64,000 nt of DNA from positions 4,237 to 68,236 of the forward strand of contig JBGSYH010000005.1 of assembly GCA_041751035.1 (NCBI GenBank), written 5' to 3'. Of the stretch, positions 23,263 through 31,268 are shown in pieces; position 1 is the stretch's first letter; the number at the start of each line of letters is the position of its first letter. Origin of the DNA: Pyrinomonadaceae bacterium. GTDB lineage: Bacteria > Acidobacteriota > Blastocatellia > Pyrinomonadales > Pyrinomonadaceae. The notes under the pieces were generated by a model that did no database searches, was not told the origin of the DNA, and saw nothing but the letters and a program-made list of their open reading frames with translations. A program made the translations under genes and the position numbers.

Positions 23263-23409
23263 AGTCCCAAGTCCCAAGTCCCAAGTCCCAAGTCCAAAGT
23301 CCAAAGTCGAAAGTCGAAAGTTCAAAGTCCAAAGTCCAAAGTTCAAAGTCCAAAGTCCAAAGTCCAAAGTCCAAAGTCCAAAGTCCAAAGTCCAAAGTCC
23401 AAAGTCCCG
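23263..23409. repeat. Heptanucleotide microsatellite, 21 x 7 nt (AGTCCCA/AGTCCAA/AGTCGAA/AGTTCAA)
   Basis: Counted directly as 147 nt of uninterrupted 7-nt periodicity. It produces repetitive pseudo-ORFs (SPKSKVQ...) in several frames. Confidence 0.95.
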
Positions 23410-23482
23410 AGCCCAAAAACCACCTTCCGGTTTTATCGCATCTGTGATACACTCTTGCATCTGTTAAATCAACTCTCATGTT

Positions 23483-23932: not shown

Positions 23933-23993
23933 GTTCAGAGTTCAAGCTTCAGCTTGCTTCTTCGTTCAGAGTCCAAGCTTTAGCTTGTTCTTT
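23933..23993 (+). repeat. Two direct REP-like units (GTTCAGAGTNCAAGCTTNAGCTTG)
   Basis: 23933-23962 and 23964-23993 each hold a 6-bp-stem hairpin caagct-NN-agcttg. They overlap the last codons of the RAYT ORF. Confidence 0.85.
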
Positions 23994-24674
23994 CGGAAAC
24001 ACATCCCATCCTTTCCCATAATCTAACACCGGAAATTCTTTCCAAATCCGAAGAACTTCGTCTCGGCCAAGTTCTTCAAGAAATTGGTGAGCACTCGAAT
24101 AAGGCCAATCCTGCCATTTTTCAACCAGACCATGATGAACTGCATTGTTGTGAATATAATTAACGCTCGCCCAATAGTGGCGGTTTGACTTCATGTCTCG
24201 GTCAAAGAAATTGAACCAAACCTTTCTGCCGGGTGTGTTGTCCTCAAGATTCCATAAGCGTGCGGTTCGACCATGCAGTATGCCGATCAGTTTTCGCAGC
24301 AGTGCCATTTCGGCAGTCGAGGCCAACAAGTGGTAATGATTCGGCAGGATAGTCCAAGAATGCAGCTTCGAATCAGCCTCCTGACAGGTTTTTAAAATTG
24401 CGACCTCAAACTCAGTTATTCGATCGATAGTTTTTCCGATTATCGAATGATGCAGATAACAGGCGGCTGTAATAATGAAGGTATTGGTGCCTTCAAAGTC
24501 GCGGTGCGGCGGGGAATGCCAAGGCATCCGCCGTATCTTTCGGCCCTCTAGAACTTGCTCCCGCTGTTTCTCGTTTAACTTTCGCCAAAGGTACATTGCG
24601 ATTTGAATTTTATGTTCTAAATTTGCCCGGTTGGCTCTAAATTCAATGTGCGAATTATTGGACATCAGAAACAT
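23949..24674 (-). CDS. REP-associated tyrosine transposase (IS200/Y1_Tnp-like, RAYT)
   Basis: HUH-type motif ILPNHYHLL and a C-terminal tyrosine motif VNYIHNNAVHHGLV, at ~240 aa as in RAYTs. Confidence 0.7.
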   Translation of the reverse strand: MFLMSNNSHIEFRANRANLEHKIQIAMYLWRKLNEKQREQVLEGRKIRRMPWHSPPHRDFEGTNTFIITAACYLHHSIIGKTIDRITEFEVAILKTCQEADSKLHSWTILPNHYHLLASTAEMALLRKLIGILHGRTARLWNLEDNTPGRKVWFNFFDRDMKSNRHYWASVNYIHNNAVHHGLVEKWQDWPYSSAHQFLEELGRDEVLRIWKEFPVLDYGKGWDVFPKEQAKAWTLNEEAS

Positions 24675-24696: not shown

Positions 24697-24780
24697 GTTC
24701 AGAGTACACGCTTCAGCGTGCGGTGCTGGCGAAAAGGCTTGATGGTCGGCGCCGGACAAGCTAAAGCTTGAACTCTGAAC
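24697..24780. repeat. Inverted pair of REP-like units (BIME-like)
   Basis: 24697-24721 gttcagagtacacgcttcagcgtgc is in plus orientation with a compensated stem cacgct/agcgtg. 24755-24780 gacaagctaaagcttgaactctgaac is the inverted copy. Confidence 0.85.
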
Positions 24781-25605: not shown

Positions 25606-26955
25606 TTACTCAGAGAGCTTTCTCCTTAACAATTCAGTTTCGAGGCGTTCGCGTTCCGTGGTGCTTGACGGGTCTTCCCATTCGGTCTCAAGCTGAAGAT
25701 CGCCTAGGCCTTCGATCCGCAATGCGAACTGCATTATCTCAGCCCAGGTTTGACCGAAGGCGAACTGGCGGTCGCGCACCTTGGCGATAAAGCGGGATTC
25801 GGCTCGCAGGATCGCTTCGCCCGAAGGGAACCCACGCGTGTGCGGCAGCAGATAATACATCGGCGTACCGGTGACGGATGCCATGTCGATGCGAAAGCTG
25901 TCTTTTACTTTAAGGAACTGGTCGAGGTTCGCGGTGCCGAAATCGCCAAATTTCGCATCGGGATTTTGCGTTACCCAAAGATGATCGACGCCTGCCTTGA
26001 ACGGAGCGACGGCGTTACCATCATTGTCATATTCGATCTCTATGCCGGCGGCCCAACGTTGCCGATACGCCGAATATTCCATCGCGACCAGCATATCCAG
26101 AACAGATTTGTTCAGGCCATCTTGCACGGGTATCGCCGATTCCAGTTCCGAACGACCGAATGCACCGAGGTCTGCGTTGTTCGCGAAATGGAACACAGGA
26201 ACAGTGTTGTAGGGATTGGCGATGACGTGCATGTCCGGAATACCCTCGTGCTCCGCACTCGTGGGGACAGGAGTGTCCCCGCTCCCGTAGGGAATGAAGT
26301 CGCGGTGGTCGGGGAGCGTTGCTTCGCCGGGTTTGGCGGTGATGTACCGTTCGATGCGGTCGGCGTAAAAAAGATTGAGCCGCGTGTGCTTATCGGCGGT
26401 CCGCCAAAATTTAGCGGCGCGGATGATCCGGCCGGGATGGTCTTCATCATATGTCACCGAAACGTTCGCCGCACGGTTCGGATAGATCGCCGCCTTGCCT
26501 TCATCATCCGGCCAGACGATCGCATATGCATCGCCGCTAACGAGAGCTTCGCGATGGACCTCGCCAGAACGAAGCTGCATTCGGTTGCGATGCCAGATGT
26601 GTTCGAGAGGAGCGCGGACACTCTTGTCCGCATCGCCGGTTCCTCCGGCAAAATATTCGCGGCCCATCAAAGACTCCAACTCTTTCGCACTTGTTCGCGT
26701 CGAAGCGACGCTCATGGGGACATGAGTGTCCCCGCTCCTACGGAAGCCGGTGATGCGGAGTTTGTCGCGGACTGCGTCGCAGACCGCAGGGCAAAGGTTC
26801 ATCGCGAATTCGCGAAAGAGCGAGCCGAACGCGTTCTCAAATTTTTCGGTCGCGTAAGCCAGATCATGTTGGCCGCGATAGTAGCGTTCGGGCTTTGTGT
26901 ATCGCGCACCCGCGGTGCGGAAATTGTGAATTGCTTCTTCGATGTGTGTTTTCAT
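25606..26955 (-). CDS. Phage portal protein (SPP1 Gp6-like)
   Basis: About 450 aa. The C-terminal segment ...MYYLLPHTRGFPSGEAILRAESRFIAKVRDRQFAFGQTWAEIM resembles the conserved portal core. ATG at 26955 (MKTHIEEAI). Confidence 0.75.
   Translation of the reverse strand: MKTHIEEAIHNFRTAGARYTKPERYYRGQHDLAYATEKFENAFGSLFREFAMNLCPAVCDAVRDKLRITGFRRSGDTHVPMSVASTRTSAKELESLMGREYFAGGTGDADKSVRAPLEHIWHRNRMQLRSGEVHREALVSGDAYAIVWPDDEGKAAIYPNRAANVSVTYDEDHPGRIIRAAKFWRTADKHTRLNLFYADRIERYITAKPGEATLPDHRDFIPYGSGDTPVPTSAEHEGIPDMHVIANPYNTVPVFHFANNADLGAFGRSELESAIPVQDGLNKSVLDMLVAMEYSAYRQRWAAGIEIEYDNDGNAVAPFKAGVDHLWVTQNPDAKFGDFGTANLDQFLKVKDSFRIDMASVTGTPMYYLLPHTRGFPSGEAILRAESRFIAKVRDRQFAFGQTWAEIMQFALRIEGLGDLQLETEWEDPSSTTERERLETELLRRKLSE
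26263..26285. repeat. 23-nt palindromic repeat copy 1 inside portal CDS
   Basis: ggggacaggagtgtccccgctcc, with a 7-bp stem ggggaca/tgtcccc. Confidence 0.9.
26716..26738. repeat. 23-nt palindromic repeat copy 2 inside portal CDS
   Basis: ggggacatgagtgtccccgctcc matches copy 1 at 22/23 positions and lies 453 nt (151 codons) away. Confidence 0.9.
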
Positions 26956-26998
26956 AATGATGGTTGATCCGCCATGTGGCGGACGGTCTAAGCTTTGA

Positions 26999-27388
26999 TC
27001 AGCGAAGAATTGCGCCCAACGCAACACCCGCCGCAACGTCGCCGATCCGGCGCCAAACGGACGTTCGTTTTGTCTTTAGCCCGGCGATCAGCTTGTCCTG
27101 AGCGGTGATCACCGCGTCTTTGGCAGCGATCGTTTCGTTCTTTGCGGCGATGGCTTGTCTTAGCGCGTCGGTCTCGCTTTTACGTGTTTCGTTCAGTTCT
27201 TTGAGGACCGCGTTCGCCTGTTGTTCGGTATCGAGCCGCGTTTTTAATGCGGCGTTCTCGCGTTCGAGCGCTTCGATAAGGCGATCGGCGAGACGAAGTT
27301 CTTCGGTGCTATTTTGCCCGCTCACGGTGACGCTGAAGATCGCGGCGAGCAGCAGCGGAATCAGCAGAAAGTTTTTCAAGTTGTTCAT
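26999..27388 (-). CDS. Secreted/membrane coiled-coil protein (lysis-cassette position)
   Basis: The ATG at 27388 (MNNLKNFLLIPLLLAAIF...) gives a signal-like N-terminus, a coiled coil and a C-terminal hydrophobic segment. It overlaps the upstream gene by 80 nt in another frame. Confidence 0.5.
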   Translation of the reverse strand: MNNLKNFLLIPLLLAAIFSVTVSGQNSTEELRLADRLIEALERENAALKTRLDTEQQANAVLKELNETRKSETDALRQAIAAKNETIAAKDAVITAQDKLIAGLKTKRTSVWRRIGDVAAGVALGAILR

Positions 27389-27635
27389 CTTGATTGCGTG
27401 CGGCCGTCTCGATCTCTGTAAGCCTGGCTTCGAGATACGCGGCCTTTTCCTTGTAAATATTGGTCTGTTTTTCAAGCTCGTCGGAGCGTTGCTGTTGCTG
27501 GTCGGCGAGGTGTTTGGTCCTCTCAACGGCTTGTTCGAGCCTCGCGATTTGGATATACGAGCGGATCGAGTTTCCGATGATCAGGACCGCGATAAGCATC
27601 GCGGCGGCGAAGTAGAGTTTGTGTTTAAGGGTCAT
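27309..27635 (-). CDS. N-terminally anchored coiled-coil protein (i-spanin-like topology)
   Basis: 108 aa, with one N-terminal TM helix (LYFAAAMLIAVLIIG) followed by a charged coiled coil. Confidence 0.5.
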   Translation of the reverse strand: MTLKHKLYFAAAMLIAVLIIGNSIRSYIQIARLEQAVERTKHLADQQQQRSDELEKQTNIYKEKAAYLEARLTEIETAARNQDEQLEKLSADSAAARRDLQRHRERAK

Positions 27636-27650
27636 GGTTGTTCGTTAATT

Positions 27651-27686
27651 TGAAATTTCAGATCTGAGATCTGAGATTTCAGAATC
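27651..27686. repeat. Heptamer-periodic palindromic element
   Basis: In tgaaatttcagatctgagatctgagatttcagaatc, gatctga occurs twice in tandem and tcagatctga is a perfect palindrome. Confidence 0.7.
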
Positions 27687-27702
27687 GAAACGGGCACACT
27701 CC

Positions 27703-27906
27703 CTACCGGTCGTGTTTCTGCCGGTCCTGATGTTTTTTGTTCAGGTGAATTTGCAGCAGCACGTCGATCGTCTTTCCGATACTAAAAAATAGTATCGGTA
27801 GGACGATCGCCGAGATGATGGTGATGAGCGTTCGCGTTTCGATCGCCGCGAAGACGGAAGAAACGGTTGAGAAATATGCGAGTAAGAAGTTTTTAATGTC
27901 GTTCAT
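27703..27906 (-). CDS. Holin-like small membrane protein
   Basis: 67 aa with two TM helices and a highly charged C-terminus (KKHQDRQKHDR), adjacent to the endolysin-like gene. Confidence 0.5.
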   Translation of the reverse strand: MNDIKNFLLAYFSTVSSVFAAIETRTLITIISAIVLPILFFSIGKTIDVLLQIHLNKKHQDRQKHDR

Positions 27907-27935
27907 AGTAGTTTGTGTTTTCAGCTGTTTTTGAA

Positions 27936-28013
27936 CGCGGATCAGGCGGATTCTCGCGGATGCATTTATGGTTTTCGTATCCGCTGCGATCTGCGCTATC
28001 CGCTTTATCCGCG
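27936..28013. repeat. Word hairpin (GCGGAT words / ATCCGC words)
   Basis: The left arm cgcggatcaggcggattctcgcggatgc faces the right arm gtatccgctgcgatctgcgctatccgctttatccgcg. It spans the stop codon at 28005-28007. Confidence 0.75.
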
Positions 28014-29108
28014 TTCCATTGCTTCCCTTATTCGCCCGAGCGCGATCTGGCGGTAGAGGTACATCAGCGTAAGTGCTGCGGCGACTCCGGCCGCGAAGAA
28101 CCAGACCTCACGCGGAAGCCCGGCGAGAAAGCCGAACACCGCCCACGTGGTTTGAAATACTGTGCCGACGATCGCTGTCCAAAGAGATTTCGCACGGTCG
28201 CTCCGTGTGATGACTGTCGTTGCGATGCGCTCGATCTGGTCGTAGGTTTCGGCGGCTTGGTTCACGCTCGTTTCAACTCGGTCGAGCCCGGAGTTTTGAG
28301 TACAAGCTTCAGCTTGCTTCTTTTGCTGAACGGCCTGACGGTTATCTACAGACAAGCTAAAGCTTGAACTCTCAACCGGTGAACTCTGAACGCTTGGAGT
28401 CTGAATTCCGAGAAGCTCGTCGGTCAGCCGGACGCCGTGGACGACCGTCGGCAATTCGAGCTGCCATTTTCCGAGCATTATCTGGTTAAGAAAAAAGCGA
28501 GTTCGATAGCGCGTCGCGCGAAGCCGCAGGATCGAACCGAGCCATGCATCGCGGGTCCGGACATATTCGGCGACCCACCTTTTTTCAAATTCGATCGATG
28601 GCCCGTTGCCGCCTTTGATGCTTACGCGGTCGCGGATCCTTTCGTATGAGCCGTGCGTCAGCGAATCGTAAATGACCGCGAGCGAAAGCGGCAGCACAAA
28701 GCCTGAACCTTCGCAGGCGGCGATCGCCGGTGCGAGATAATTTGTGAATGCAATGCGGTCCTGTGCCTCGCGCATCTCGCGTGTCATCCCGGCGGCACGA
28801 AGTGCGTTGCGAAAGACCATGTCGCCGGAAAGTTCTTTGATCGCATCGGGCGAAGTATCCAGCAGTTTGCGATAGCGTTCGATCATCACCTTGCGGCCGA
28901 CAATTCCGCCAAGTCGAAGATATTCATCCACCACCGCACGCAGCGAACCCGAACGATGCGTGAACTGACTGGCTCCGTACGAAATGCCGGCTCCGTCGTT
29001 CAAAACAGCAACCGCCGAATAATTGCCGAGCGGCTTGCCGGTCTCAAATATCCGCACGATCGCCGAGGCCTTTCTCTTATCAATTGTTGTAAAGGTCATT
29101 TGTTTCAT
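28005..29108 (-). CDS. Endolysin-like glycoside hydrolase (GH46/lysozyme-like N-domain) with C-terminal TM segment
   Basis: The N-terminal ETG...NDGAGISYGASQF pattern resembles the Glu/Asp core of chitosanase-like lysozyme folds. The C-terminal ~60 aa are hydrophobic. The start is ATG at 29108 or 29099, and a REP pair is embedded at 28293-28406. Confidence 0.55.
   Translation of the reverse strand: MKQMTFTTIDKRKASAIVRIFETGKPLGNYSAVAVLNDGAGISYGASQFTHRSGSLRAVVDEYLRLGGIVGRKVMIERYRKLLDTSPDAIKELSGDMVFRNALRAAGMTREMREAQDRIAFTNYLAPAIAACEGSGFVLPLSLAVIYDSLTHGSYERIRDRVSIKGGNGPSIEFEKRWVAEYVRTRDAWLGSILRLRATRYRTRFFLNQIMLGKWQLELPTVVHGVRLTDELLGIQTPSVQSSPVESSSFSLSVDNRQAVQQKKQAEACTQNSGLDRVETSVNQAAETYDQIERIATTVITRSDRAKSLWTAIVGTVFQTTWAVFGFLAGLPREVWFFAAGVAAALTLMYLYRQIALGRIREAMERG
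28293..28406. repeat. Inverted pair of REP-like units embedded in frame in a CDS
   Basis: 28293-28320 gttttgagtacaagcttcagcttgcttc is in plus orientation and 28351-28376 gacaagctaaagcttgaactctcaac is inverted, with an extra half-unit to 28406. The architecture matches 24697-24780. Confidence 0.85.
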
Positions 29109-29250
29109 CCTTGAAAATGCTTCTTGCAAACGATATGTTTGTTTGATAAAATAGAATGGTCGGACGATAAAGGACGCCAAGGGTTTTATATTATCCCCGC
29201 CGCTTACATACCGCCCGGCCACTTGCAGAATAGGTGTTCCAGATGCAGAA

Positions 29251-29344
29251 GGAAATAGCAATTGTTAAGGATTATGGCAATTGTTGAAGATGGAATAAAT
29301 GGAATGATTGGAATGAAAGTGGGCACTTGGCGCACTTGGAAAGG
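29251..29344. repeat. Left mosaic inverted-repeat block
   Basis: Contains the words ggaaatagcaattgtt, gcaattgttgaag, ggaataaatggaa and gcacttggcgca, which recur reverse-complemented at 29679-29742. Confidence 0.8.
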
Positions 29345-29353
29345 AGCAAAGAA

Positions 29354-29584
29354 ATGAAACGTACATTCGATATTCAGGTTCGGCCGAAAATGAGGCTTAG
29401 TGAGATAGAACGCATTTTGAAAGACAACCGGGCGATCGTGCCCGTGCCCTCGCGGCAGACGCTGATCCGCATGTGCGAATCCGGTGTTCTTGAAACACCA
29501 ACGGGCAAACCGGGCCGGAGCGGGTGGTTGGTTTATGAAGATTCGTTTCTAAAGTGGCTCAAGTCGCTGGATGAAAACGGGTGA
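29354..29584 (+). CDS. Small excisionase-family (HTH_17-like) DNA-binding protein
   Basis: AAGGAG SD then ATG at 29354. The segment SRQTLIRMCESGVLET...GWLVYEDSFLKWLKSL fits the winged-helix excisionase-family pattern. Confidence 0.55.
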   Translation: MKRTFDIQVRPKMRLSEIERILKDNRAIVPVPSRQTLIRMCESGVLETPTGKPGRSGWLVYEDSFLKWLKSLDENG

Positions 29585-29599
29585 ATTGAATGCGGGTTT

Positions 29600-29644
29600 T
29601 AGCCACGAATGCACGAATTTTTCTTATTAGTGCATTCGTGGCTA
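29600..29644 (+). repeat. 15-bp perfect hairpin (GCCACGAATGCAC family)
   Basis: tagccacgaatgcac - 15-nt loop - gtgcattcgtggcta, directly after the stop at 29584. No U-tract follows. Confidence 0.85.
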
Positions 29645-29678
29645 TATCTGAGAAGTATGGCAAGCGACTTCCGGCGGA

Positions 29679-29742
29679 CCTTTCCATTTATTCCAATTGC
29701 GCCAAGTGCGGTCAACTTCAACAATTGCTATACCGCATTTCC
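29679..29742. repeat. Right mosaic inverted-repeat block
   Basis: Its reverse complement reads ggaaatgcggtatagcaattgttgaagttgaccgcacttggcgcaattggaataaatggaaagg, which shares exact 12-16-nt blocks with 29251-29344. Confidence 0.8.
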
Positions 29743-29769
29743 CCAAACCTCGTTTATTCTCGCCGCTGT

Positions 29770-30219
29770 ATGAACGAAGAAATACAAAAAATCGAGAGCG
29801 AAGATGCGGCGGCCATGCCGGATGCGTCGCTCGAAAGCAGTGCCGAAGTTGAACAGCTTCGGCGTGAGAATGAGGAACTGAAACAGGCCGCACGTATGAA
29901 GGCGGCTCACGATAATTTGACGCAAAAACTTGCTGATGCGGGCGCACGCTCGCCTGAGCTATTGTTCGACACCGTCCGCGGAAAAATTCAATTTGACGAA
30001 GGCGGCGAACCGCTGAACACGGCGGCGTTGGTCGCGGACCTAAGATCAAAATTTCCGGAACAGTTCGGCGCTACCCACGCGTCTGCATCGATCGATGCGG
30101 CCGCGGGAGCCGGGGCTCGTCCAAACTTTCTAACCGCGGAAGCACTCGCAAAGATGACCCCGCAAGAGATCGCACGGCTCGATTGGAACGAAGTGCGAAG
30201 CGTATTAACTAACAACTAA
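29770..30219 (+). CDS. Phage scaffolding protein (GP20-like)
   Basis: Coiled-coil N-terminus, with the DAGARSPELLFD...IQFDEGGEP...LVADLRSKFPEQFG pattern typical of GP20-type scaffold proteins. ATG at 29770. Confidence 0.65.
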   Translation: MNEEIQKIESEDAAAMPDASLESSAEVEQLRRENEELKQAARMKAAHDNLTQKLADAGARSPELLFDTVRGKIQFDEGGEPLNTAALVADLRSKFPEQFGATHASASIDAAAGAGARPNFLTAEALAKMTPQEIARLDWNEVRSVLTNN

Positions 30220-30222
30220 AAA

Positions 30223-30337
30223 CGAATAGTGAATAACGAATAGTGAATAACGAATAGCGAACAACGAATAGTGAATAGCGAATAATGAGCCATCTGTTAC
30301 TGATCACTTTTCACTTTTCACTGATCACTCTTCACTA
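30223..30337. repeat. Tandem 14-mer array plus partly complementary arm
   Basis: acgaatagtgaata occurs about 4.5 times (30223-30287), followed by ctgatcacttttcacttttcactgatcactcttcact. AGTGAA words on the left face TTCACT words on the right. Confidence 0.85.
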
Positions 30338-30344
30338 AAAGATT

Positions 30345-31196
30345 ATGGCATTGACATTTATACCTACGGTTTGGGCAGCGCGGCTGCTCACGGCATTGGA
30401 AAGATCGCTCGTTTACGGACAAGGCGATGTGGCAAATCGTGATTACGAGGGCGAGATACGCTCGGCGGGAAACACGGTAAAGATCGCGTCGGTCGGCGAT
30501 GTTACGATCGGCGATTACACACAGAACACGAACATCGACGATCCGGAGGAACTGACCGATGCGGCTCAGACACTTGAGATCGACCAACAGAAGTTCTTTC
30601 ATTTTTACGTGGACGGCATCGACCGTGCGCAGCAGAACGTGAACATCCTTGATGAAGCGATGCGGCGTTCGGCATGGAAGCTCCGCGACGAGGCGGACAA
30701 GTTCCTCGCCGGGCTGATGGCAGCGGCTGTGCCGGGCGGGAACACTTTGGGGTCGGACATCACGCCGATCATTCCGACAAAGGACGATGCTTACGAATAT
30801 CTCGTCGATCTGGGCGTAAAGCTGGACGAAGCGAACACACCGATCGAGGGGCGATTTGTAATCGTCCCGGCATGGTTCCACGGATTGCTGCTCAAGGATG
30901 AGCGGTTCATAAACGCGGGGACGGCGCGTTCGGATGCGGCTCTTCGCAATGGTGAGGTCGGCGAAGCGGCGGGTTTTTCGATCCTGAAATCGAACAATGT
31001 GCCAAACGAAGAAGGCGAGCAATACAAGATAATCGCCGGACATTCGATCGCGACGGCGTATGTTGAACAGGTCGTTGATGTACAGACCTACAAGCCCGAA
31101 AAGCGTTTTGGCGATGCGGTAAAAGGGCTGCACGTTTACGGGGCCAAAGTCGTGCGTGCGGCAAATCTGGCGATGATGATCGCCGACAAAGAGTAA
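30345..31196 (+). CDS. Phage major capsid protein (HK97-fold, P22-coat/SU10-like family)
   Basis: The N-terminus MALTFIPTVWAARLLTALERSLVYG...NRDYEGEIRSAGNTVKI matches the conserved start I recall for this capsid family. It lies directly after the scaffold gene. Confidence 0.75.
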   Translation: MALTFIPTVWAARLLTALERSLVYGQGDVANRDYEGEIRSAGNTVKIASVGDVTIGDYTQNTNIDDPEELTDAAQTLEIDQQKFFHFYVDGIDRAQQNVNILDEAMRRSAWKLRDEADKFLAGLMAAAVPGGNTLGSDITPIIPTKDDAYEYLVDLGVKLDEANTPIEGRFVIVPAWFHGLLLKDERFINAGTARSDAALRNGEVGEAAGFSILKSNNVPNEEGEQYKIIAGHSIATAYVEQVVDVQTYKPEKRFGDAVKGLHVYGAKVVRAANLAMMIADKE

Positions 31197-31202
31197 CTCT
31201 AA

Positions 31203-31268
31203 ACGGTGAACGGTGAGTGGTGAATAAAAATTCCTACACTCACCATTCACCGCTAAGCATTCACCATT
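31203..31268 (+). terminator. Strong hairpin after capsid gene (GGTGA words), possible attenuator/terminator
   Basis: 16-bp stem cggtgaacggtgagtg/cactcaccattcaccg with one mismatch and a 17-nt loop. An alternative pairing ggtgaat/attcacc is possible. No clear U-tract. Confidence 0.55.

What the first reader, a model, noticed from the sequence alone, without database searches (positions are those of the whole stretch)
28293..28406. REP-like inverted pair embedded in frame inside the endolysin-like ORF
The composite element seen next to the RAYT (plus unit, about 30-nt spacer, inverted unit) recurs at 28293-28376, with an extra half-unit to 28406. It lies inside the continuous ORF 28005-29108. 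It is translated as a Ser/Gln-rich linker (...VQSSPVESSSFSLSVDNRQAVQQKKQAEACTQNSG...) between the hydrolase-like N-domain and the C-terminal two-helix hydrophobic segment. Either a REP doublet inserted without breaking the frame and now encodes a linker, or it fused two formerly separate genes (an endolysin and a small membrane protein). REP elements are normally extragenic, so a coding copy is unusual.
Basis: seen in the sequence. Interest (0 to 1): 0.6.

Follow-up and report, generated by a model that had tools for sequence, protein, structure and literature searches.

The report
Hairpin repeats translated inside lysis gene
Copies of this genome's commonest mobile hairpin repeat (REP) sit in frame in the floppy linker of a phage-type cell-wall hydrolase and are read as 33 extra-looking residues; this is real, but it is a kind of event already described in other bacteria, and it did not fuse two genes.

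Summary
Observation confirmed. Window 28293-28406 holds an inverted REP pair (28293-28316 and 28353-28376, 36-nt gap), a truncated third unit (28377-28391) and a 15-nt partial copy (28392-28406). All lie in frame in the gene 28005-29108 (-). The family has about 108 units in this 3.84-Mb genome and one RAYT gene, which the units flank.

The fusion idea fails. More than 700 homologues share the layout of GH46-like domain, linker and C-terminal two-helix membrane segment, including REP-free orthologues whose linkers are unrelated and P/Q-rich.

The insertion idea holds, but the event is old and complex. Orthologues of 64-88% identity carry the units at the same place. A second clade has a REP doublet elsewhere in the linker, and other palindrome families occupy the same linker in further lineages.

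AlphaFold gives pLDDT below 50 for exactly the REP-coded residues.

The same genome has in-frame REPs in tgt, rluD-like, pepN-like, an S58 peptidase and a terminase gene.

Only the rare GAGTAC arm variant is stop-free in reverse orientation, and every coding copy uses it.

Intragenic REPs are published (Di Nocera 2013; Rickettsia RPEs), and this scan has noted them on other DNA. This is a new member of a known kind.

The parts
28005..29108 (-). Endolysin-like gene, 367 aa. GH46-like (chitosanase/lysozyme-fold) domain at about aa 1-235, linker 236-274, amphipathic helix plus two hydrophobic helices 275-366.
   Evidence: Translation. Pfam PF01374, 43 bits against a cut-off of 27. PDB chitosanase 7c6c E=3e-12, with the IFE(T/N)G and (N/D)DG(A/R)G motifs aligned. 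761+ homologues of the same length. AlphaFold helices H274-328 and H333-366.
28293..28316 (+). REP unit (GTTTTGAGTACAAGCTTCAGCTTG on the + strand), antisense to the gene and read as QAEACTQN (aa 265-272). It is the rare GAGTAC variant.
28317..28352 (.). 36-nt spacer between the inverted arms, read as SVDNRQAVQQKK (aa 253-264).
   Evidence: It has the same length as the spacer of the RAYT-flanking pair and is 19/36 identical to it.
28353..28376 (-). REP unit in the sense orientation of the gene (reverse complement GTTGAGAGTTCAAGCTTTAGCTTG), read as VESSSFSL (aa 245-252). The hairpin stem CAAGC/GCTTG is intact.
28377..28391 (-). Truncated REP unit (reverse complement GTTCAGAGTTCACCG), read as VQSSP (aa 240-244). 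Orthologues have a full unit here; 15 nt were lost in frame.
   Evidence: DNA alignment with L001, L002 and L003.
28392..28406 (-). 15-nt partial copy of the unit's 5' half (reverse complement ATTCAGACTCCAAGC; compare GTTCAGAGTCCAAGC at 23964-23978), read as IQTPS (aa 235-239).
   Evidence: read directly from the sequence.
23949..24674 (-). RAYT-like Y1 (HUH) transposase, 241 aa, the only copy in the genome. Its 3' end reads into a REP unit (..QAKAWTLN..).
   Evidence: Pfam PF01797, E=1.5e-5, 25.5 bits against a cut-off of 23. tblastn of the genome finds one full copy. NHYHLL and NYIHNNAV motifs are seen in the sequence.
23933..23987 (+). Two direct REP units on the 3' side of the RAYT gene.
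24697..24780 (.). Inverted REP pair (gap 36 nt) on the 5' side of the RAYT gene. This is the composite element that recurs in the ORF.
27703..27906 (-). 67-aa two-helix membrane protein directly downstream (holin-like by position and size only).
   Evidence: Conserved as a 66-67-aa gene after the orthologues. No family hit.
27309..27635 (-). Rz-like spanin, 108 aa.
   Evidence: phrog_739, E=1.9e-8.

Best explanation
The stretch 28293-28406 is made of units of the genome's RAYT-associated REP family. They became part of the coding sequence of a phage-type GH46-like wall hydrolase, in the disordered linker between its catalytic domain and its C-terminal membrane hairpin. The linker and the two-domain architecture existed before the REPs arrived. 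REP units, presumably mobilised as single-stranded hairpins by the RAYT enzyme (inferred, not shown), landed in the linker DNA of an ancestor of this and related strains. They persisted because the linker tolerates almost any sequence, because all gains and losses since have been multiples of three, and because the arm that is antisense to the gene is the rare GAGTAC variant, the only one with a stop-free frame in that orientation. The units are now translated as VQSS(S)FSL and QAEACT(L/Q)N. Most likely this is neutral passenger sequence serving as linker. A side effect is that the mRNA can fold into a long hairpin at this point. The same process has put in-frame REPs into at least five other genes of this genome, and into the terminase and portal genes of sister elements.
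For: REP identity: 6 matches in the window against 0 expected; 108 units in the genome with compensatory stems; a single RAYT flanked by them. Pre-existing architecture: more than 761 full-length homologues. REP-free orthologues with P/Q-rich linkers sharing a PQA(Q/R)PP motif occur both in genomes with 0 REP copies (G024, G006, G016, G022, G017, G008) and in genomes with some (G002, G019, G005). Shared, old insertion: L001, L002, L003, L034, L026, L031 and L032 carry the units in the same frame and place. At least two acquisitions: REP-bearing rows are not one clade on a tree built without the linker (AU p=0.002; at least 4 changes forced by starred branches). Clade B has the doublet directly after PQAQPP, verified in DNA (L024). 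Tolerant site: pLDDT below 50 for residues 239-277, while the N-domain is mostly 80-95. The gene is under purifying selection outside the linker: codon-position identity to L003 is 0.83/0.89/0.53. Frame filter: reverse-orientation GAGTTC units (90 of 108) have stops in all three frames, GAGTAC units (8 of 108) are open in one frame, and every coding reverse arm is GAGTAC. Generality: the Pfam domains of Tgt, terminase, RluD-like, PepN-like and S58 peptidase span REP-coded inserts. The Tgt alignment to a solved Tgt splits exactly at the 25-aa REP-coded stretch. L003 terminase and portal, and L026 portal, carry in-frame doublets. Published precedent: PMC3733652.
Against: No transposition event is shown, and no target duplication or empty site at high identity was found. 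The linker cannot be aligned between REP-bearing and REP-free orthologues, so the exact insert boundaries and the multiple-of-3 net length cannot be measured for this gene. Neutrality is doubtful. Coding units remain at 0-1 differences from the 24-nt consensus in L001 and L003, although synonymous sites of those genes are only 58-77% identical to the window gene. Most stems stay fully paired, some through variant stems. This points to constraint, gene conversion or re-insertion rather than free drift.
Confidence: 0.8

Rival explanations
1. The coding REP units are kept for a function at the nucleic-acid level. For example, the mRNA hairpin between the catalytic-domain and membrane-anchor codons could pause ribosomes, protect the transcript or attenuate it. 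Alternatively, the DNA hairpins could remain substrates of the RAYT enzyme and be repeatedly renewed from the genomic REP pool.
For: Units are at or near consensus in orthologues with diverged synonymous sites. 5/5 stem pairing holds in most coding units, including the variant stems CAGGC/GCCTG, CAAAC/GTTTG and CGGGC/GCCTG. The RNA of 28270-28420 (-) folds into one long hairpin, -48 kcal/mol, z=-2.65. The same linker and the same portal loops hold palindromes of different families in different lineages.
Against: The window's own copy is decaying. One unit is truncated, another is reduced to 15 nt, and the reverse arm has CAAAAC for CTGAAC. Many orthologues, including those in REP-containing genomes, do without any REP. 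Variant stems also exist in the intergenic pool, so they can be explained by the source copy rather than by compensation in place. A z-score of -2.65 is what an inverted repeat gives by construction.
Confidence: 0.15
2. A REP doublet fused two formerly separate genes, a soluble endolysin and a small membrane protein, into one ORF.
Against: At least 761 homologues have both parts in one protein at 95-100% coverage. These include REP-free orthologues from genomes with no copy of the REP. No orthologous locus shows two genes. A separate 67-aa membrane protein follows anyway. The proposed internal GTG is not conserved.
Confidence: 0.02
3. The resemblance is chance or an assembly artefact. A Ser/Gln-rich low-complexity linker merely looks like a REP, or repeat-induced misassembly joined unrelated pieces.
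For: The linker is low in complexity, and the genome is a 42-contig draft.
Against: 0.00 matches are expected from shuffles, against 6 found. The match extends colinearly over about 84 nt including the arm tails. Independent assemblies from seven other samples have the same units in the same gene.
Confidence: 0.01

Closest known systems
Intragenic REPs (GTAG- and CGTC-tagged palindromes) described by Di Nocera, De Gregorio & Rocco 2013, BMC Genomics 14:522 (PMC3733652)
   Same: Short RAYT-linked palindromic repeats are mostly extragenic, with a minority lying wholly inside ORFs of known proteins. More than half of those inserts are dimers or groups encoding 20-30 aa. The authors argue that such inserts sit in flexible linkers or loops. 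They also note different REPs at about the same site of one gene in related species.
   Different: This family has no GTAG or CGTC tag; GAGT/AGAG precedes the stem, as read. The host is an acidobacterium, by the names of homologues. The target is a phage-type lysis gene, and several palindrome families recur in one linker. There is also a clear frame filter: only the GAGTAC arm is stop-free in reverse.
Rickettsia palindromic elements (RPE; Ogata et al. 2000, as summarised in PMC3733652 and PMC10969869)
   Same: These are palindromic repeats inserted in frame in many unrelated, functional genes and translated as extra surface segments. Inserts also occur in tRNA-modification genes: a pseudouridine synthase in R. 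conorii, and tgt and an rluD-like gene here.
   Different: RPE-1 elements are about 150 bp and have no known dedicated transposase. Here the units are 24 nt with an adjacent RAYT gene, and only about 8% of units are intragenic.
REPtron / REPIN-RAYT systems (E. coli TnpA-REP, Pseudomonas REPINs; own knowledge of Nunvar 2010, Bertels & Rainey 2011, Ton-Hoang 2012)
   Same: A single-copy Y1 HUH transposase gene is flanked by the repeats it is thought to move. Units occur as singles, direct pairs and convergent inverted pairs.
   Different: The inverted pairs have variable gaps (12-49 nt) rather than one stereotyped REPIN, and some units are coding.

Membership tests
REP / RAYT (REPtron) repeat family | Short imperfect palindrome present in many dispersed copies, with the hairpin kept through compensatory changes | tested here: met
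   108 units in 3.84 Mb. Stems are CAAGC/GCTTG, CACGC/GCGTG, CCAGC/GCTGG and CAAAC/GTTTG. The core is the most frequent 14-mer of the genome.
REP / RAYT (REPtron) repeat family | A Y1 HUH transposase (RAYT) gene flanked by units of the family | tested here: met
   ORF 23949-24674 matches PF01797 above its cut-off. Units lie on both sides. There is a single copy in the genome.
REP / RAYT (REPtron) repeat family | Conserved 5' GTAG (or CGTC) tetranucleotide tag next to the stem (Di Nocera 2013 classes) | tested here: not met
   The unit GTTCAGAGTTCAAGCTTNAGCTTG and its complement contain neither GTAG/CTAC nor CGTC/GACG. It is therefore a REP in the broad sense, not a member of those two tagged superfamilies.
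REP / RAYT (REPtron) repeat family | Cleavage and transposition of the units by the RAYT protein | not testable with these tools
   Needs biochemistry.
In-frame intragenic palindromic inserts (RPE-like / intragenic REP) | The same repeat occurs both between genes and inside intact ORFs without stops or frameshifts | tested here: met
   The endolysin ORF is continuous. Tgt, terminase, RluD-like, PepN-like and S58 peptidase have Pfam domains spanning the insert.
In-frame intragenic palindromic inserts (RPE-like / intragenic REP) | Orthologues or family members lack the insert | tested here: met
   REP-free linkers occur in genus representatives. The alignment to a solved Tgt splits at query 185-209.
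In-frame intragenic palindromic inserts (RPE-like / intragenic REP) | The insert lies in a loop or linker rather than in the fold core | tested here: met
   pLDDT is below 50 for residues 239-277, between two confident parts.
Phage endolysin (lysis cassette muralytic enzyme) | Wall-hydrolase catalytic domain with catalytic residues present | tested here: inconclusive
   GH46 Pfam hit and PDB chitosanase hit with the IFExG and DG motifs aligned. GH46 enzymes are chitosanases, and activity on peptidoglycan is not shown. No PHROG family was matched.
Phage endolysin (lysis cassette muralytic enzyme) | Location in a lysis cassette with holin and spanin genes | tested here: met
   A 67-aa membrane protein and an Rz-like spanin (phrog_739, E=1.9e-8) lie directly downstream. 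The same order is seen in L002, L003, L026 and L031.

The most novel reading that the evidence does not exclude
The disordered linker of this lysis protein, and specific loops of the neighbouring portal and terminase genes, may be recurrent landing pads. Successive palindromic repeat families would be inserted, renewed or exchanged there by the hairpin-specific transposase. The coding units would then evolve in concert with each genome's own REP pool rather than with the gene, and the resulting mRNA hairpin would be used to separate translation of the catalytic domain from that of the membrane anchor.
Probability: 0.12. Interest if true: 0.6.

Novelty: new member of a known kind. Interest (0 to 1): 0.33.

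Why it matters
The case is a clean, well-controlled example of mobile hairpin repeats becoming protein sequence. There are REP-free and REP-bearing orthologues, at least two independent acquisitions, and a simple sequence rule for which arm variant survives in a reading frame. It is useful for annotation, because REP-derived peptides such as VQSSSFSL, QAEACTLN and PAKAGTPN should not be read as domains or as evidence of fusion. It also marks insertion-tolerant sites in Tgt, RluD-like, PepN-like, portal, terminase and this lysis protein. It does not open a new category.

Tried and rejected
- PHROGs gave no family for the hydrolase or the 67-aa protein.
- The metagenome scan with the single protein returned only 4 loci, none from the REP-bearing clade, so it added nothing.
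- An internal start at the GTG of 'SVNQ' was considered and rejected. The codon is GTT in L003 and the residue varies (V/I/F) across orthologues.
- A stereotyped REPIN copied as a unit was considered and rejected. Convergent pairs have gaps of 12-49 nt with unrelated spacers. The 19/36 identity between the ORF spacer and the RAYT-side spacer is left unexplained.
- Candidates C5:99874, C22:50265 and C24:93868 (3 mismatches, no hairpin) were set aside as chance matches. The C4:9018 and C12:95407 ORFs look spurious and were not counted.
- The AU test group was defined after I had seen a first tree, so p=0.002 is indicative only.

Full report
**1. What is there**

The minus-strand ORF 28005-29108 encodes a 367-aa protein.
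- Residues 28-191 match Pfam GH46 (PF01374, 43 bits, cut-off 27).
- Residues 10-186 match solved chitosanases (7c6c, E=3e-12), with the IFE(T/N)G and DG motifs aligned.
- Directly downstream on the same strand lie a 67-aa two-helix membrane protein (27703-27906) and an Rz-like spanin (27309-27635; phrog_739, E=1.9e-8).
- Portal and capsid genes flank the cassette.

The gene is therefore the wall-hydrolase member of a phage-type lysis cassette. Its activity on peptidoglycan is inferred, not shown.

An AlphaFold model built on 24 homologues gives three regions.
- A confident helical N-domain.
- A segment with pLDDT below 50 at residues 239-277.
- Long helices at 274-328 and 333-366, the last two hydrophobic.

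**2. The repeat**

The core GAGTACAAGCTTCAGCTTG (up to 3 mismatches) occurs six times in the window, against 0.00 expected.
- Two direct units lie at 23938 and 23969, and an inverted pair at 24702/24757. Together they flank the ORF 23949-24674.
- That ORF matches the Y1 transposase family (PF01797, above cut-off) and is the only such copy in the genome.
- A further inverted pair lies at 28298/28353, inside the hydrolase ORF.

In the whole 3.84-Mb genome there are 108 units. Compensatory stem variants show a conserved hairpin, and the core is the genome's most frequent 14-mer.

Units occur as singles, as 14 direct pairs and as 10 convergent inverted pairs with gaps of 12-49 nt; there are no divergent pairs. 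The RAYT-side pair and the ORF pair both have a 36-nt gap and align colinearly.

Among 40 relatives the family is patchy: 8 of 24 genomes of the genus and several other families of the class have it.

This is a genuine REP/RAYT system. It lacks the GTAG or CGTC tag of the published superfamilies.

**3. Anatomy in the ORF**

Reading the gene's sense strand, the elements are:

| Window coordinates | Element | Peptide |
|---|---|---|
| 28392-28406 | 15-nt partial copy of the unit's 5' half | IQTPS |
| 28377-28391 | unit truncated by 15 nt | VQSSP |
| 28353-28376 | full unit | VESSSFSL |
| 28317-28352 | 36-nt spacer | SVDNRQAVQQKK |
| 28293-28316 | full unit in the opposite orientation | QAEACTQN |

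Alignment with three orthologous genes from other assemblies (L001, L002, L003) shows two intact direct units 30 nt apart plus the inverted unit. The window copy has lost exactly 15 nt from the first unit. The REP-coded residues 240-272 fall within the low-confidence segment 239-277 of the model.

**4. Not a fusion**

A search of the large protein collection returned at least 761 homologues. The best 120 are 322-477 aa long and nearly all cover 95-100% of the query. They are named chitosanase from Acidobacteria, Blastocatellia or Pyrinomonadaceae where a name exists.

The N-domain, the amphipathic helix and the two hydrophobic helices are conserved throughout.

Seventeen of 24 genus representatives have an orthologue at 45-59% identity.
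- Their linkers are unrelated P/Q/T-rich stretches that often contain PQA(Q/R)PP.
- None contains the REP, whether the genome has 0 REP copies or 10-28.

The architecture therefore predates the REPs.

The proposed internal GTG start is GTT in L003, and the residue is not conserved.

**5. History**

Close orthologues (64-88% identity; P0003-P0010, P0012, P0014, P0016, P0049) have VQS(S/T)xFSL and QA(E/K)ACTLN in the linker. This was verified in DNA for L001, L002, L003, L034, L026, L031 and L032.

In most of them the segment between the arms is homologous to the ancestral linker. For example..TMTNLK.. is shared by REP-free P0011 and REP-bearing P0012 and P0014. The two arms may therefore be separate old insertions bracketing the linker.

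A second clade (P0018, P0030, P0045, P0051, P0068, P0082, P0116) has a compact doublet at another place, right after PQAQPP. This is verified in L024, which has the stem variant CAAAC/GTTTG.

On a tree built with the linker removed, REP-bearing proteins are not one clade. At least 4 changes are forced by well-supported branches, and the AU test gives p=0.002, with the caveat that the group was named after a first tree had been seen.

Other palindrome-derived peptides occupy the same linker in other lineages.
- SSPTVREG..ALTYVQATD
- VLSPAFRRPLPPEGGAQ
- RNAGTLAR; its DNA in L003 is the hairpin GCGGGCA-CCCT-TGCCCGC.

All differences between copies are multiples of three.

**6. Why these copies survive**

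Translating the unit variants gives the following.
- In the sense orientation, two or three frames are open.
- In the reverse orientation, the common GAGTTC variant (90 of 108 units) has stops in all three frames.
- The rare GAGTAC variant (8 of 108) has one open frame, QA(E/K)ACTLN.

Every reverse arm found inside a gene is GAGTAC and is read in that frame. This holds for the window, all orthologues, the Tgt and terminase genes of this genome, the L003 terminase and the L026 portal.

Outside the linker the gene is under purifying selection. Codon-position identity to L003 is 0.83/0.89/0.53.

**7. A genome-wide habit**

Fourteen units lie in frames that stay open for at least 60 aa on both sides. 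After weak matches and doubtful ORFs are removed, in-frame units are verified by Pfam domains that span the insert in these genes:
- Tgt (C38),
- a terminase large subunit (C40),
- an RluD-like pseudouridine synthase (C30),
- a PepN-like M1 peptidase (C24),
- an S58 peptidase (C32).

The Tgt alignment to a solved Tgt breaks at query residues 185-209, which is exactly the REP-coded stretch.

Eight of about 105 units, roughly 8%, are intragenic. A compact bacterial genome is mostly coding, so this is what selection against disruptive insertions would leave.

**8. What remains open**

- Coding units in L001 and L003 are identical to the 24-nt consensus, although synonymous sites of those genes are only 58-77% identical to the window gene.
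- Most coding stems are fully paired, some through variant stems.
- The mRNA can form one long hairpin here (-48 kcal/mol, z=-2.65).

These points fit constraint on the hairpin, renewal from the REP pool or repeated insertion. They do not discriminate among the three. The window copy itself is decaying.

**9. Comparison with what is known**

Di Nocera et al. 2013 (PMC3733652) report the following.
- REPs lie wholly within ORFs of known proteins in several species.
- More than half of these inserts are dimers or groups encoding 20-30 aa, probably in linkers or loops.
- Different REPs can sit at about the same site of one gene in related species.

Rickettsia RPEs are the classic case. This scan has also flagged in-frame REPs in many other genomes.

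The finding is therefore a new member of a known kind. Its particular points are an untagged REP family in an acidobacterium, a lysis-protein linker hit repeatedly, and an explicit frame filter.

Noticed in passing
window 26263-26285, 26609-26631 (-), 26716-26738: A second palindrome family (GGGGACAnGAGTGTCCCCGCTCC; 18 copies in the genome, with the compensatory variant GCGGACA/TGTCCGC) sits three times in frame in the portal gene. Orthologous portals L003 and L026 carry family-A REP doublets (VQSSSFSL...HAEACTLN) at the same two loop sites.
   Followed up: partly
window 25606-31250; loci L003, L025, L026: A compact capsid-scaffold-lysis-(terminase)-portal module with a CI-like repressor and an M78 peptidase, but no tail genes, is conserved among housekeeping genes in related genomes. 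The window copy lacks the terminase gene that lies between spanin and portal in L003, L025 and L026. It might be a capsid-forming satellite or a GTA-like element.
   Followed up: no
genome contigs C38:44174-45392, C40:1594-3289, C30:10140-11157, C24 (- strand, around 188587), C32 (- strand, around 36542): In-frame REP units lie in tgt, a terminase large subunit, an rluD-like gene, a pepN-like gene and an S58 peptidase gene. The stem variant CCAGC/GCTGG is read as PAKAGTPN / GSSSFSW.
   Followed up: partly
window 23949-23990: The RAYT ORF's last residues (..KEQAKAWTLNEEAS) are themselves coded by a REP unit, and the stop lies beyond it.
   Followed up: no
window 28005-28190: The hydrolase has no N-terminal signal or SAR segment but has a conserved C-terminal two-helix membrane hairpin preceded by an amphipathic helix. 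This is an unusual topology for an endolysin, and how the catalytic domain reaches the wall is unclear.
   Followed up: no
window 23300-23410: A long tandem heptamer tract (AAGTCCA and variants) lies upstream of the M78 peptidase gene. The heptamer resembles the REP 5' half (AGAGTCCAAG).
   Followed up: no
L003 2079-2102 (linker of P0008); also P0005, P0007, P0010, P0014, P0016: A third palindrome, GCGGGCA-CCCT-TGCCCGC, is read as RNAGTLAR in the same linker. In P0005 and P0014 it also appears at the C-terminal tail of the protein.
   Followed up: no
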